Part shown: positions 7,182 through 23,077 of the stretch, one piece after another
Position numbering within the stretch: position 1 is the first letter of the stretch
Layout of the letters: every line of letters starts with the position of its first letter
Assembly (NCBI GenBank): GCA_016840465.1
Contig: JAEOSH010000001.1
Coordinates: forward strand, 88,763 to 120,762
Origin: Candidatus Baldrarchaeum yapensis
Lineage (GTDB): Archaea > Asgardarchaeota > Baldrarchaeia > Baldrarchaeales > Baldrarchaeaceae
DNA length: 32,000 nucleotides
Reading direction: 5' to 3'
The notes under the pieces: generated by a model
Seen by the model: only the letters and a program-made list of their open reading frames with translations
Databases searched by the model: none
What the model was told of the DNA's origin: nothing
Program-made: the position numbers and the translations under genes

Positions 7182-7500
7182 TCACAACTTCACCAATCCA
7201 CTTCAAGTAGTCTTCTAATCCGTCGATTATCGGTAGAATAATTGCTTCAGGAACCTCATAAGGATGTTCCTTCTTTATGACAGAGATTGCAGATTTTGAT
7301 TTCTTTTTTGTTGTTTTTATCATGAGCACGTATTCAACTGCCTCTTCTATCTTTCCTTCCCACCAATAGAGGGATTTAGCATTTTCTAATATGCTAACAC
7401 ATGCAACTAATTTCCTGTCTAGCAACACCTTGGCGATTCTCAATGCTGATTCTCTAGAGGGTGTTGTGGTAATTATTAATACGTATTCTGGCGTTTCCAT
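7150..7500 (-). CDS. cutA: CutA divalent-cation tolerance protein
   Basis: LVACVSI, SLYWWEGKIEE, HPYEVPE, YLKWI; GGTGA RBS before ATG 7500. Confidence 0.93.
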   Translation of the reverse strand: METPEYVLIITTTPSRESALRIAKVLLDRKLVACVSILENAKSLYWWEGKIEEAVEYVLMIKTTKKKSKSAISVIKKEHPYEVPEAIILPIIDGLEDYLKWIGEVVNDKEEASSIR

Positions 7501-7579
7501 AATCATCACCGGAATGCATTTCAGAAAGTTACTTATGAAGGTGGTGATATTTCTTCATGTTTGGCGTCAAGGTGGTTTC

Positions 7580-8746
7580 ATGATTGAGGCTTTCATCTAT
7601 ATACTCATCTTTTGGGCGACAATCGCAATGGTTTCGTCAATGATAGACCTGCGTAAGTATAATATTGAAGTATATCCTTTCGTCCTGAGCTTTAAGACAA
7701 AAAGACTCAATACCTTCATAAACAAGATTTCTACAAAGTATGTTTCCGTATGGAGAAAAATATGGACCGTCGGCGTTGTTATTTCACTATGCTTAATGGT
7801 ATTCGCAGTTTATTTGCTAATCGATAACCTAGTTGCAAGTTTTGAGTCGAGACCTATAACACCCGTTGCACCTTTAATTCCTGGGATTACAATAACGGGT
7901 TACACGCTGATATATGCACTTCTTGGAATCACAATAACAGCAATTTCGCACGAGCTTGCTCATGGAATCGCAGCAGGATCGGAGGGATTGAGAGTAAAAA
8001 GCACAGGATTGATAGTAATTGGGGTGTTATTTGGGGCGTTTGTTGAACTTGATGATAGGGAAGTAAAAAAACTAAGCCCTAAAAGGAGATTATACGTATT
8101 CTCCGCTGGCTCGGCATCAAACGTTGTTATCGCATTTCTCTTTCTTGCTCTAATAGCGACATTTCCCCTAATCATAAGCCCTATTTACAACACCTCCCCT
8201 ACCGGAGTCGTCGTTGTAGAATTGGTGAGCGATGGACCTGCGTATAAGGCTGGCATCACGAAGGGGGATGTTATAACGCACATAAATAATACTCCCATAA
8301 ACGGCGTTAACGATCTTAACAAGATTCTATCCAGAACATCTCCTAATGACACTGTAGTGGTAAGTACGCTGAGAGGGAATTTCACTGTAAGGTTATCTCC
8401 TTGTCCACGGAATTCATCGCGTGGTTATCTTGGAGTTTACGTTTTTGATTATTATAGTTCCAGAGTGCCCCTCCTTGAGAGCATTCTTACTCCTCTGTTT
8501 CCCTACCACATTTATGAAACTTTGCTATGGACGTTCATGATTTCCTTTAGTGTTGCGCTCTTTAATATGTTACCCATACCTCCCTTTGATGGTGATAGAC
8601 TCTTAGCGTCAATTCTTGAAGCGTTTAATATCAGGAAGAACATAAGAAACTACGTAAGGGTGACTGTTGCATGTATTTGTACTATTCTACTGCTATTAAA
8701 CATCATATTTACCTTTATGTCGTTTGGAATTGTGATTTTCTCGTAA
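7580..8746 (+). CDS. Site-2 (M50) intramembrane metalloprotease with PDZ domain
   Basis: HELAHG (HExxH), FNMLPIPPFDGD, PDZ-like GPAYKAGITKGDVI; several hydrophobic segments; GGTGG RBS before ATG 7580. Confidence 0.92.
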   Translation: MIEAFIYILIFWATIAMVSSMIDLRKYNIEVYPFVLSFKTKRLNTFINKISTKYVSVWRKIWTVGVVISLCLMVFAVYLLIDNLVASFESRPITPVAPLIPGITITGYTLIYALLGITITAISHELAHGIAAGSEGLRVKSTGLIVIGVLFGAFVELDDREVKKLSPKRRLYVFSAGSASNVVIAFLFLALIATFPLIISPIYNTSPTGVVVVELVSDGPAYKAGITKGDVITHINNTPINGVNDLNKILSRTSPNDTVVVSTLRGNFTVRLSPCPRNSSRGYLGVYVFDYYSSRVPLLESILTPLFPYHIYETLLWTFMISFSVALFNMLPIPPFDGDRLLASILEAFNIRKNIRNYVRVTVACICTILLLLNIIFTFMSFGIVIFS

Positions 8747-8836: not shown

Positions 8837-8843
8837 TTTATAT
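8837..8843 (+). promoter_or_regulatory. TATA box for the permuted 5S precursor
   Basis: TTTATAT ends about 25 nt upstream of G8868, the first base of the precursor closing stem. Confidence 0.6.
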
Positions 8844-8867
8844 GGAGGCTCAACTTCCGCAATTACT

Positions 8868-9027
8868 GGTGCAACGCCGCGTGAGAGTTAAGCCTCCGCA
8901 CGTTCCCGGGAGTACTGTCCTCCGCGAGGGGACGGGAAACCGGGAAGCTGCTCACCCACATGGGTGGGCGGCCATAGTGCGGAGGGCAACACCCGTTCCC
9001 ATTCCGACCACGGAACGGCGTTGCACC
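8868..9027 (+). other. BHB processing stem of the 5S precursor (hBHBh')
   Basis: 12-bp perfect stem 8868-8879/9016-9027; bulge GAA 9013-9015; 4-bp helix CGTG 8880-8883/CACG 9009-9012; bulge AGA 8884-8886; inner helix 8887-8889/9006-9008. Confidence 0.92.
8886..9014 (+). rRNA. rrf: 5S rRNA, circularly permuted gene (3' half 8886-8957, ACAT linker, 5' half 8962-9014)
   Basis: 5' half GGGCGGCCATAG..GGGCAACACCCGTTCCCATTCCGACCACGGA; 3' half AGTTAAGCC..GAGTA..GCGA loop..GGAAA. Helices I-V all pair (I 8947-8957/8962-8972; II 8977-8985/8893-8901; V 8903-8909/8940-8946). Confidence 0.95.
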
Positions 9028-9100
9028 GCTCCTTCTAATACTTTATAAGTGGTGTCGGATACAAGTAATAACCATGAGCGATGATAAGATGCCGTAGAGG

Positions 9101-10261
9101 ATGATAATTGTGCAACCACTTGTTCAGGAAGAGAGCACATTTGTACAATGGCTGATATTGTTATTCTTCATGATATCCATATTTATGTCAATGTTTTATG
9201 AGAAGATTAGATTTTCCGCTGGAATCAGACAGATAAAGATGGAGTTAATGAAGTTGGAAAGGCTCGCGAAAAACGGAAAAGAGTTGGTAATAAATGCAGT
9301 AAAGGAAATAGGGAAGCCCGGGTTTGATCCAAGTAATAGAATCTTAGAGTTCTTAGAGTTCTTTATGATAGAGCCAGTAGATAGAGATCCTTTTGGTATC
9401 ATGAAAAAGCTAGAGCATCTGATTAATCTGAGAAGGGACGTTTTCCGCAGGTTTCTATCTGAAGTCGCGCCAAATGCGTCGAGGGATGAACGTGCAAACC
9501 TGGAGGGCGCATTAGAGGCCACAATTGTGATAGATTACTTATTTAGACTTGTGAGGCATTATTTGATACTCAGCGAGAGAACTAAGAGTTACATTCTAGT
9601 TGCACAACTGCAGTTGCAACTACCGCTTGTGATGAGATATGCAAAGGCGTACTTTGAGGCTTTAAAGGCATTTAAAGATGGAAAACCGATAGGAGATGGT
9701 ATAGGTGTACTTGTGGCAACGAAATTCGTGTACGATCTTGCGAAGGACGGAGAAAGTAGGGTGACCTTTAAGGAAATCGTAGAAGATACATTGGTTACCG
9801 AGGTAATGTTTGAGGGACGAAAGATTTTCGTTGTAAGAGCAAAGGGACCTGGAGCGTTCGTTGGAAAGCCAGGCGATGCAATTGTTAAAATCATAGAAGA
9901 CTGTAAAGGAAAAAATGACATATCTAGGATCATTATGATCGATGCTGCATTGAAACTTGAAGGAGAGCGTAGCGGTGAGGTTGCTGAGGGTGTTGGGGCA
10001 GCAATAGGTGGCATAGGTGTTGACAGGTTTAAGATAGAGGAAATAGCTACAAAATATGGGATTCCTCTTGATGCAATAATAATTAAGGAGTCCCTAGAGG
10101 AGGCCATTAGCCCACTCAAAAAGGAGATTTTTGAGAGTGTAAATGAGGTAATAAAAAGAATAAAAAGAATTATTCTCCAGTCGACAAAACCCGGGGATGC
10201 AATCATACTTGCTGGTATTGGTAATGCTGCTGGGATAGGCTTCATGAAGCTTTCTTCCTGA
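9101..10261 (+). CDS. DUF1512-family conserved archaeal protein
   Basis: N-terminal TM segment; FFMIEPVDRDPFGI, IGDGIG, IDAALKLEGE, GGIGVDRFKIEE resemble the family as recalled. Confidence 0.75.
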   Translation: MIIVQPLVQEESTFVQWLILLFFMISIFMSMFYEKIRFSAGIRQIKMELMKLERLAKNGKELVINAVKEIGKPGFDPSNRILEFLEFFMIEPVDRDPFGIMKKLEHLINLRRDVFRRFLSEVAPNASRDERANLEGALEATIVIDYLFRLVRHYLILSERTKSYILVAQLQLQLPLVMRYAKAYFEALKAFKDGKPIGDGIGVLVATKFVYDLAKDGESRVTFKEIVEDTLVTEVMFEGRKIFVVRAKGPGAFVGKPGDAIVKIIEDCKGKNDISRIIMIDAALKLEGERSGEVAEGVGAAIGGIGVDRFKIEEIATKYGIPLDAIIIKESLEEAISPLKKEIFESVNEVIKRIKRIILQSTKPGDAIILAGIGNAAGIGFMKLSS

Positions 10262-22885: not shown

Positions 22886-22979
22886 GCCGCCGTAGCTCAG
22901 TTGGTAGAGCGCCGGACTGCCGTTTAGGTCCGGAATCGTAATCCGGCGGTCCCGGGTTCAAATCCCGGCGGCGGCTCCA
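22886..22979 (+). tRNA. tRNA-Thr(CGT) with 18-nt intron at position 32/33 (22918-22935)
   Basis: GCCGCCG/CGGCGGC, U73, CCA; strict BHB with CCGG 22912-22915/22930-22933 and bulges ACT and AAT; spliced loop CU CGU AA. Confidence 0.95.
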
Positions 22980-22987
22980 TCACCCGT

Positions 22988-23077
<90 letters not shown>

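What the first reader, a model, noticed from the sequence alone, without database searches (positions are those of the whole stretch)
8947..8972. Mature 5S may stay a covalently closed 129-nt circle
Seen: the normal 5' and 3' ends of 5S (helix I, 11 bp, 8947-8957/8962-8972) are joined by only 4 nt (ACAT), forming a hairpin with no second BHB. Inference: after circularisation the RNA is either used as a circle (the recalled Thermoproteus SRP RNA precedent) or reopened in this loop by an unknown nuclease. A functional circular ribosomal RNA would be very unusual.
Basis: inference. Interest (0 to 1): 0.65.

Follow-up and report, generated by a model that had tools for sequence, protein, structure and literature searches.

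The report
Capped, probably circular, Asgard 5S rRNA
This Asgard archaeon's only 5S ribosomal RNA gene is written back half first, with its normal ends joined by a 4-base hairpin cap. That cap is conserved across most Asgard families, so the ribosome's 5S is probably a closed ring, but no RNA data here prove it.

Summary
Bases 8947-8957 and 8962-8972 form an uninterrupted 11-bp helix (9 Watson-Crick, 2 G-U) closed by ACAU (8958-8961). This is helix I of a circularly permuted 5S rRNA gene (8886-9014) that sits inside a textbook bulge-helix-bulge (BHB) motif. Cutting at 8885|8886 and 9014|9015 and ligating gives a 129-nt ring with a canonical 5S junction. No canonical 5S is detectable in this 96%-complete genome, which does encode RtcB ligase and two EndA subunits.

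New here: at least 82 of 151 Asgard genomes, in 20 of 27 families, share the permuted layout. Canonical 5S genes occur only in other genomes. Helix I covaries strongly (99% paired). Its cap is 3-5 nt in 51 of 52 distinct sequences and UNCG-type in 30 of 52 (13 of 20 families). That pattern fits a permanent structural cap, not a processing spacer.

So a closed ring as the mature form is the best-supported reading (about 0.6), but it remains unproven. My one metagenome scan found no ring transcripts. The papers searched contain no description of such a gene. This scan has noted the permuted gene before on other DNA (146 notes in at least 100 genomes).

The parts
8838..8844 (+). TATA-like box (TTTATAT), about 26 nt upstream of the first base of the processing stem; likely promoter of the precursor
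   Evidence: Read directly from the sequence. The spacing matches the canonical Asgard 5S genes and the 26-nt TATA-to-start distance of the Thermoproteus SRP RNA (PMC4731332). Inferred, not tested.
8867..8879 (+). Outer helix of the BHB, 5' strand (leader); pairs with 9016-9028
   Evidence: 12 Watson-Crick pairs plus one G-U pair.
8880..8883 (+). Central 4-bp BHB helix, leader strand (CGUG); pairs with 9009-9012
   Evidence: The same motif occurs in the Baldr-, Odin-, Jord-, Frey- and Atabeyarchaeia genes.
8884..8886 (+). 5' three-nt bulge (AGA); predicted cut at 8885|8886
   Evidence: Geometry. The cut-after-second-bulge-nucleotide rule comes from my own knowledge of archaeal EndA. It is supported because the resulting junction reads as a canonical 5S.
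8886..8957 (+). 3' part of the 5S rRNA (3' strands of helices III and II, helices IV/V, 3' strand of helix I)
   Evidence: Sub-threshold RF00001 partial hit. The rearranged sequence aligns end to end with canonical Asgard 5S genes.
8947..8957 (+). Helix I, 3' strand
8958..8961 (+). ACAU cap joining the native 3' and 5' ends of the 5S
8962..8972 (+). Helix I, 5' strand
8962..9014 (+). 5' part of the 5S rRNA (helix I 5' strand, loop A, helix II, helix III, loop C)
   Evidence: RF00001 partial hit of 25.7 bits; alignment.
9009..9012 (+). Central BHB helix, mature strand (CACG)
9013..9015 (+). 3' three-nt bulge (GAA); predicted cut at 9014|9015
   Evidence: Ligating A9014 to A8886 restores the universal CGGAAGUUAAG stretch.
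9016..9028 (+). Outer helix of the BHB, 3' strand (trailer), followed by a pyrimidine/T-rich stretch

Best explanation
The locus is the genome's only detectable 5S rRNA gene, in circularly permuted order: 3' part, then a 4-nt cap, then 5' part. The precursor folds so that leader and trailer form a helix-bulge-helix-bulge-helix motif. The splicing endonuclease (two EndA subunits are encoded) cuts after the second nucleotide of each 3-nt bulge, at 8885|8886 and 9014|9015. RtcB joins A9014 to A8886. The product is a 129-nt ring whose junction reads exactly like a normal 5S helix III region. Because helix I is sealed by a tight hairpin cap with no cleavage signal, the ring is most likely not reopened. 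It would then be built into the large subunit as a covalently closed 5S rRNA, with the capped helix I pointing into solvent. Shown here: the gene order, the BHB, the restored junction, the enzymes, and the conservation and covariation. Inferred: cleavage, ligation, and above all that the ring stays closed.
For: Gene order and BHB geometry.
The rearranged sequence folds at minimum free energy into the 5S three-way junction. It aligns end to end with canonical Asgard 5S genes at 58-68% identity.
No RF00001 hit was found in the whole genome (96% complete), and the permuted model hits only once.
RtcB and two EndA-family genes are present.
At least 82 of 151 Asgard genomes in 20 families carry full-length permuted genes. 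The 48 genomes with a separate canonical 5S locus over the Rfam cut-off are all different genomes.
Complete genomes of Odin-, Atabey- and Freyarchaeia, and two matching Heimdallarchaeum, have only permuted loci.
Helix I is 99.2% paired, with compensatory changes at 7 of 8 pairs.
The cap is 3-5 nt in 51 of 52 distinct helix-I sequences. It is UNCG in 30 of 52 and in 13 of 20 families, against a uniform expectation of 1/64. The one long exception is itself a stem-loop extension.
The break point sits at three different registers in different lineages, while the cap is kept.
Canonical Asgard 5S genes sit between a TATA box and a T-run with no processing stem, so there is no sign of a dedicated 5S end-trimming pathway.
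Precedents from papers: E. coli ribosomes work with the native 5S ends joined by a tetraloop, and those ends lie over 50 A from the 23S rRNA (PMC7283268). The Thermoproteus permuted SRP RNA is a mature circle (PMC4731332). Circular 23S rRNA occurs in archaeal ribosomes (PMC12918454).
Against: There is no RNA evidence. My single metagenome scan, for contigs carrying junction and cap together, returned only 7 chance matches to bacterial 5S genes.
This window's own cap is ACAU, not a UNCG loop.
The genome encodes a FAU-1/RNase W-like protein (DUF402). That family is implicated in pre-5S processing in Thermococcales, so a reopening nuclease cannot be excluded (PMC7758197 discussion).
Conservation of UNCG could partly reflect shared ancestry, or selection for folding of the precursor only.
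Permuted tRNAs of C. merolae show that a ring can be merely an intermediate (cited in PMC4267664).
Confidence: 0.58

Rival explanations
1. Ring as intermediate only. The BHB is cut and ligated, but an endonuclease then opens the ring in or next to the ACAU cap. The ribosome would then carry an ordinary linear 5S of about 125 nt, as with permuted tRNAs in Cyanidioschyzon.
For: Circular 16S/23S intermediates are normally relinearised in archaea (PMC10515664 abstract; background of PMC12918454). A DUF402/FAU-1-like RNase is encoded in this genome. This window's cap is A/U-rich rather than UNCG.
Against: There is no bulge, spacer or conserved sequence at the cap. Caps are minimal and mostly UNCG, which is a poor nuclease substrate. 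DUF402 presence does not track permuted versus canonical lineages. It was not found in Odin-, Atabey- and Heimdall-type permuted families, yet it is present in permuted f1, f2, f8 and f16-20, and was not found in canonical f12. Canonical Asgard 5S genes show no end-processing stems.
Confidence: 0.2
2. Linear permuted 5S. The BHB is cut, or the ends are merely trimmed, but they are not ligated. The ribosome would then hold a 5S with a capped helix I and a nick in helix III, comparable to the permuted final product in brown-algal mitochondria.
For: Brown-algal mitochondrial 5S rRNAs are permuted in the final RNA, with helix I replaced by a closed hairpin (PMC4267664). This shows that such a topology can work.
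Against: RtcB is present. To my knowledge, BHB-excised inner segments in archaea are circularised, as shown for the SRP RNA (PMC4731332). The nick would lie in the most conserved protein-binding part of the 5S. Unchecked notes from this scan report rejoined forms in environmental RNA for other lineages.
Confidence: 0.12
3. Not a working gene. The locus would be a rearranged pseudogene or an assembly artefact, with the real 5S in the unassembled 4% of the genome.
For: The genome is a 100-contig draft.
Against: The same layout occurs in at least 82 genomes, including closed chromosomes. Covariation is found in every helix. No genome carries both a permuted gene and a separate canonical 5S locus over the cut-off.
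Confidence: 0.02

Closest known systems
Permuted, circular SRP RNA of Thermoproteus tenax / T. uzoniensis (Plagens et al. 2015, PMC4731332)
   Same: It is a universal structured ncRNA gene in swapped order, and it also looked 'missing' to standard tools. It has a BHB at the break, a TATA box about 26 nt upstream, cleavage by the tRNA splicing endonuclease, and a junction that restores a conserved element. The mature RNA is a circle.
   Different: The RNA is different (5S rRNA, a ribosome component). The spread is far wider: 20 families of a phylum, against a few species. No RNA-seq proof exists here.
Circular 23S rRNA in archaeal ribosomes (PMC12918454) and circularly permuted 23S of Pyrococcus/Thermococcus (PMC7758197; bioRxiv 10.64898/2026.03.23.713588)
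   Same: These are BHB-dependent circularisations of an rRNA that is then used in the ribosome without restoring the original ends.
   Different: Those genes are in normal order and the BHB lies in the processing stem at the native ends. Here the gene itself is permuted, the ligation site lies inside helix III, and the native ends are joined in the DNA by a cap.
Circularly permuted tRNA genes of Cyanidioschyzon merolae (Soma 2007, cited in PMC4267664)
   Same: Same 3' half-linker-5' half gene order, with a BHB-type junction and a circular RNA stage.
   Different: There the ring is opened at the acceptor ends by the general tRNA end-processing enzymes. No comparable signal exists at the 5S cap.
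Engineered cp5S rRNA in E. coli (Huang et al. 2020, PMC7283268) and permuted mitochondrial 5S of brown algae (Valach et al. 2014, PMC4267664)
   Same: In both, helix I of the 5S is closed by a loop or hairpin in a working ribosome.
   Different: Both are linear or embedded RNAs with new ends elsewhere. Neither is a free covalent circle or archaeal.

Membership tests
5S rRNA (Rfam RF00001) | Scores above the Rfam gathering cut-off (38 bits) on the genomic sequence | tested here: not met
   Only two partial hits, 25.7 and 15.8 bits, one per half. Nothing was found at gathering threshold in the window or the genome. This is the expected result for a permuted gene.
5S rRNA (Rfam RF00001) | Three-way junction with helices I-V and conserved loop A, C and E sequences once the halves are put in canonical order | tested here: met
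   The minimum-free-energy fold of the rearranged 125-mer and of the 129-nt ring gives helix I, II-III and IV-V. The sequence aligns end to end with six canonical Asgard 5S genes at 58-68% identity. Covariation is found in all modelled helices.
5S rRNA (Rfam RF00001) | Is the genome's 5S gene (no other copy) | tested here: met
   for G000 (96% complete). Closed genomes of related classes carry only permuted loci.
BHB-processed permuted ncRNA genes giving circular RNA (Thermoproteus SRP RNA type) | 3' part encoded upstream of the 5' part | tested here: met
BHB-processed permuted ncRNA genes giving circular RNA (Thermoproteus SRP RNA type) | Helix / 3-nt bulge / 4-bp helix / 3-nt bulge / helix formed by leader and trailer at the break | tested here: met
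   A 13-bp outer helix, the CGUG/CACG central helix, the AGA and GAA bulges and a 3-bp inner helix. It is conserved in most lineages, in three registers.
BHB-processed permuted ncRNA genes giving circular RNA (Thermoproteus SRP RNA type) | Splicing endonuclease and RtcB ligase encoded | tested here: met
   PF01139 at 609 bits. PF01974 twice, at 110 and 64 bits.
BHB-processed permuted ncRNA genes giving circular RNA (Thermoproteus SRP RNA type) | Junction-spanning RNA reads / circular RNA shown | tested here: inconclusive
   One metagenome scan for junction plus cap gave 7 chance hits only. Earlier notes from this scan claim rejoined forms in environmental RNA for other lineages, but I did not check them.
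Ring-as-intermediate permuted genes (C. merolae tRNA type) | Recognisable processing signal or spacer at the native ends, which reopens the ring | tested here: not met
   The cap is 3-5 nt in 51 of 52 sequences and mostly UNCG. There is no bulge or conserved flanking motif.
Circular rRNA resident in ribosomes (23S, PMC12918454) | The circular form is the ribosome-bound form | not testable with these tools
   Needs ribosome-fraction RNA-seq, RNase R treatment or cryo-EM.

The most novel reading that the evidence does not exclude
Ribosomes of most Asgard archaea carry a covalently closed circular 5S rRNA. This would include Heimdall-group relatives of eukaryotes. The ring would be made by the tRNA-splicing machinery from a back-to-front gene, and would be the first circular 5S known in any organism.
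Probability: 0.55. Interest if true: 0.9.

Novelty: new variant of a known kind. Interest (0 to 1): 0.72.

Why it matters
5S rRNA is considered a universally linear, free-ended ribosomal RNA, and its gene is considered trivial to find. Here, most Asgard lineages would make it only through tRNA-type splicing.

This explains a published puzzle. 5S genes 'could not be predicted' in the closed Heimdallarchaeum genomes (PMC8813620).

It would also explain why Rfam-based 5S searches find no 5S gene in these Asgard genomes.

If the ring stays closed, it would make EndA and RtcB essential for building ribosomes in these organisms. It would add a second circular rRNA to the archaeal ribosome. It would also raise the question of when, on the line leading to eukaryotes, the linear 5S was regained or retained.

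Tried and rejected
1. Rfam at gathering threshold on the window and on the whole genome found no 5S. This is the expected result for a permuted gene.

2. I scanned the metagenome collection for contigs holding the ligated junction followed by the cap and the loop A motif. All seven hits were bacterial canonical 5S genes followed by a chance match. The pattern covered only AAGC/CATAG-type lineages and needed about 97 contiguous bases, so short ring contigs could be missed. No second scan was allowed.

3. I tested whether FAU-1/RNase W (PF04167) tracks canonical versus permuted lineages. It does not, so it is uninformative.

4. I looked for BHB stems around canonical Asgard 5S genes, which would point to an ancestral ring made from a normal gene. 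None were found.

5. I asked whether the hairpin alone is statistically unusual in 32 kb. It is not.

6. A tandem-duplication intermediate in G110 was suspected from overlapping hits. On inspection it is a plain permuted gene in several copies.

7. Nine literature searches found no paper describing a permuted or circular archaeal 5S.

8. My automatic BHB finder mis-picked or missed the motif in several divergent sequences. Some of these were resolved by eye.

Full report
**What is there.** The stretch 8867-9028 lies in a 355-nt gap between two plus-strand ORFs (7391-8746 and 9101-10261). It holds a 5S rRNA gene written back to front. Rfam finds no 5S at its gathering score in the window. With relaxed thresholds the 5S model hits twice, once on each half and in the wrong order: 8964-9063 at 25.7 bits and 8881-8956 at 15.8 bits.

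The finding's coordinates are exact. Bases 8947-8957 pair with 8972-8962 over 11 uninterrupted pairs, two of them G-U, around the loop ACAU (8958-8961). The precursor fold has a z-score of -5.9 against shuffles. It shows this hairpin, the other 5S helices and a long leader-trailer stem.

A hairpin of this size is not in itself beyond chance in 32 kb: 4 are observed against 3.1 expected. The case rests on what the hairpin is, not on its size.

**The processing motif.** Leader 8867-8879 pairs with trailer 9016-9028. Then comes a 3-nt bulge on the 3' strand (GAA, 9013-9015). Next is a 4-bp helix (CGUG 8880-8883 with CACG 9009-9012). Then a 3-nt bulge on the 5' strand (AGA, 8884-8886), and a 3-bp inner helix. 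This is the standard helix-bulge-helix-bulge-helix substrate of the archaeal splicing endonuclease.

By the usual rule, which I take from my own knowledge of the enzyme, the cut falls after the second bulge nucleotide. Here that means 8885|8886 and 9014|9015. Joining A9014 to A8886 gives a 129-nt ring. Its junction reads as the universal CGGAAGUUAAG stretch.

- Opened at the cap for comparison, the sequence folds at minimum free energy into the textbook 5S three-way junction.
- It aligns end to end with six canonical Asgard 5S genes at 58-68% identity.
- The genome encodes one RtcB (609 bits) and two EndA-family proteins.
- A TATA-like box lies about 26 nt upstream of the stem.

**It is the only detectable 5S gene.** RF00001 finds nothing in the whole 96%-complete genome. 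The permuted model finds exactly one locus.

**Who has it.** A pattern scan of species-representative genomes returned 12 records. All are Asgard archaea: Jord-, Frey-, Odin-, Baldr- and Atabeyarchaeia, and Asgardarchaeum abyssi. The window's genome sits in the same order as two Baldrarchaeota MAGs.

I built a covariance model from 16 of these genes and searched 151 genomes of the phylum.
- It gave full-length hits of at least 49 bits in 82 genomes from 20 of 27 families.
- Separate canonical 5S loci over the Rfam cut-off occur in 48 other genomes: families f7, f12, f15, f10, f23 and f26.
- The two sets do not overlap. The one apparent exception, G110, is a 38.4-bit canonical hit lying on its permuted locus.
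- Closed chromosomes of Odin-, Atabey- and Freyarchaeia carry only permuted loci.
- Two closed genomes of one genus, 3,081,793 and 3,326,783 bp, each carry two permuted copies. Their sizes match the two circularised Heimdallarchaeum genomes of 3.08 and 3.32 Mbp. The authors of those genomes wrote that 5S genes 'could not be predicted'. That identification is by size only.

**The question of this finding: does the ring stay closed?** Direct evidence is not available with these tools, so I used comparison. I aligned 67 permuted genes (63 distinct) to the model.
- The eight modelled helix-I pairs are 99.2% paired, and seven show changes on both sides. The stem has therefore turned over many times.
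- The cap has not. Among 52 distinct helix-I sequences, 51 end in a loop of 3-5 nt once internal mismatches are allowed for.
- 30 of the 52 are UNCG (UUCG, UACG, UGCG), and these occur in 13 of 20 families. CUCG and CACG appear in two more groups.
- A uniform expectation for UNCG is 1 in 64.
- The single long exception, L102, replaces the loop with a 33-nt stem-loop. That is a coaxial extension, not an unstructured spacer.

A linker that is merely cut out would be free to vary in length and sequence. A minimal, hyperstable tetraloop is what one expects of a permanent end-cap.

Four further points go the same way.
- The cap carries no bulge or conserved flanking motif that could serve as a second cleavage signal.
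- Canonical Asgard 5S genes sit directly between a TATA box and a T-run, with no processing stem. These organisms therefore show no sign of a dedicated 5S end-trimming route that could be borrowed.
- The break point differs between lineages while the cap is kept. It falls at CGGA|AG, at CGGAA|G, and inside loop C in some f9 genomes.
- From the literature, E. coli ribosomes work with the native 5S ends joined by a tetraloop, and those ends lie over 50 A from the 23S rRNA (PMC7283268). Brown-algal mitochondrial 5S has a closed hairpin in place of helix I (PMC4267664). The Thermoproteus permuted SRP RNA is a mature circle (PMC4731332). Circular 23S rRNA has been reported inside archaeal ribosomes (PMC12918454).

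**What weakens it.**
- This window's own cap is ACAU on an 11-bp stem, not UNCG. Its sister genus has C(UUCG)G on 9 bp.
- Retention of UNCG may be partly inherited, or may serve precursor folding only.
- The genome has a DUF402/FAU-1-like RNase. That family is linked to pre-5S processing in Thermococcales. Its distribution across the phylum does not follow the permuted/canonical split either way.
- My one metagenome scan, for contigs containing the ligated junction followed by the cap, found only seven chance matches to bacterial 5S genes.
- Earlier notes from this scan say that rejoined forms occur in environmental RNA for Atabey- and Jord/Freyarchaeia and another lineage. I could not check this. 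If true, it argues against the unligated form but does not separate closed from reopened. One such note was later priced at 35% for 'the closed ring is the ribosome's 5S'.

**Verdict.** I put the outcomes as follows.
- Closed ring as the ribosomal 5S: about 0.58.
- Ring reopened at the cap: about 0.2.
- Cut but unligated permuted RNA: about 0.12.
- Non-functional locus: about 0.02.

The remainder, about 0.08, is unassigned.

**Novelty.** The mechanism, a BHB cut plus RtcB ligation acting on a permuted ncRNA gene, is known. Its use for 5S rRNA, its spread over most of the Asgard phylum and a resident circular 5S are not described in any paper I could find. PMC12918454 explicitly lists 5S as the rRNA that is not circularised. 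This scan has noted the permuted gene before on other DNA (146 notes in at least 100 genomes).

Noticed in passing
L039/L010 (Atabeyarchaeia G015), L042/L011 (Atabeyarchaeia-2), L072 and L106 (f5, Heimdallarchaeum-size genomes): In these genes a hairpin of about 30 nt sits in the leader, between the outer BHB helix and the central 4-bp helix. In Atabeyarchaeia the CGUGA(A/G)AG element is duplicated on both sides of it. This looks like a nested intron at the ligation site, or a three-way-junction variant of the BHB.
   Followed up: partly
L084 (G082) and L086 (G149), family f9: The permutation break lies inside loop C (…GGUC|CCAU…), with its own CCGG/CCGG BHB, about 16 nt upstream of the usual site. 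There are therefore at least three break registers in the phylum.
   Followed up: partly
L082, L083, L103 (f9; hits of about 159 nt): About 30 extra bases lie inside the 5S body. In L083/L103 they are in the helix III/loop C region, and in L082 they extend helix IV/V. They could be introns or expansion segments of the 5S.
   Followed up: no
L102 (G137, f9): The helix-I cap is replaced by a 33-nt stem-loop extension. It is the only long cap among 52 distinct sequences.
   Followed up: no
G110 contigs C77, C90, C106, C132 (L097, L098): At least four copies of a 115-nt-ring permuted 5S gene, several of them at contig ends. This suggests a multi-copy or repeat-associated locus.
   Followed up: partly
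window 22886-22979 and 22988-23077: Adjacent tRNA-Gly(GCC) and tRNA-Phe(GAA) genes are both longer than a standard tRNA. The Gly gene has a 21-nt insert in the anticodon loop. The Phe gene scores poorly in its 5' part (35.5 bits), which suggests an intron at a non-canonical position.
   Followed up: no
G000 C56:16145-16384 and C53:4158-4412: There are two separate EndA-family genes, with ORFs of 203 and 199 aa. This points to a two-subunit splicing endonuclease, the type known for broad substrate range.
   Followed up: no
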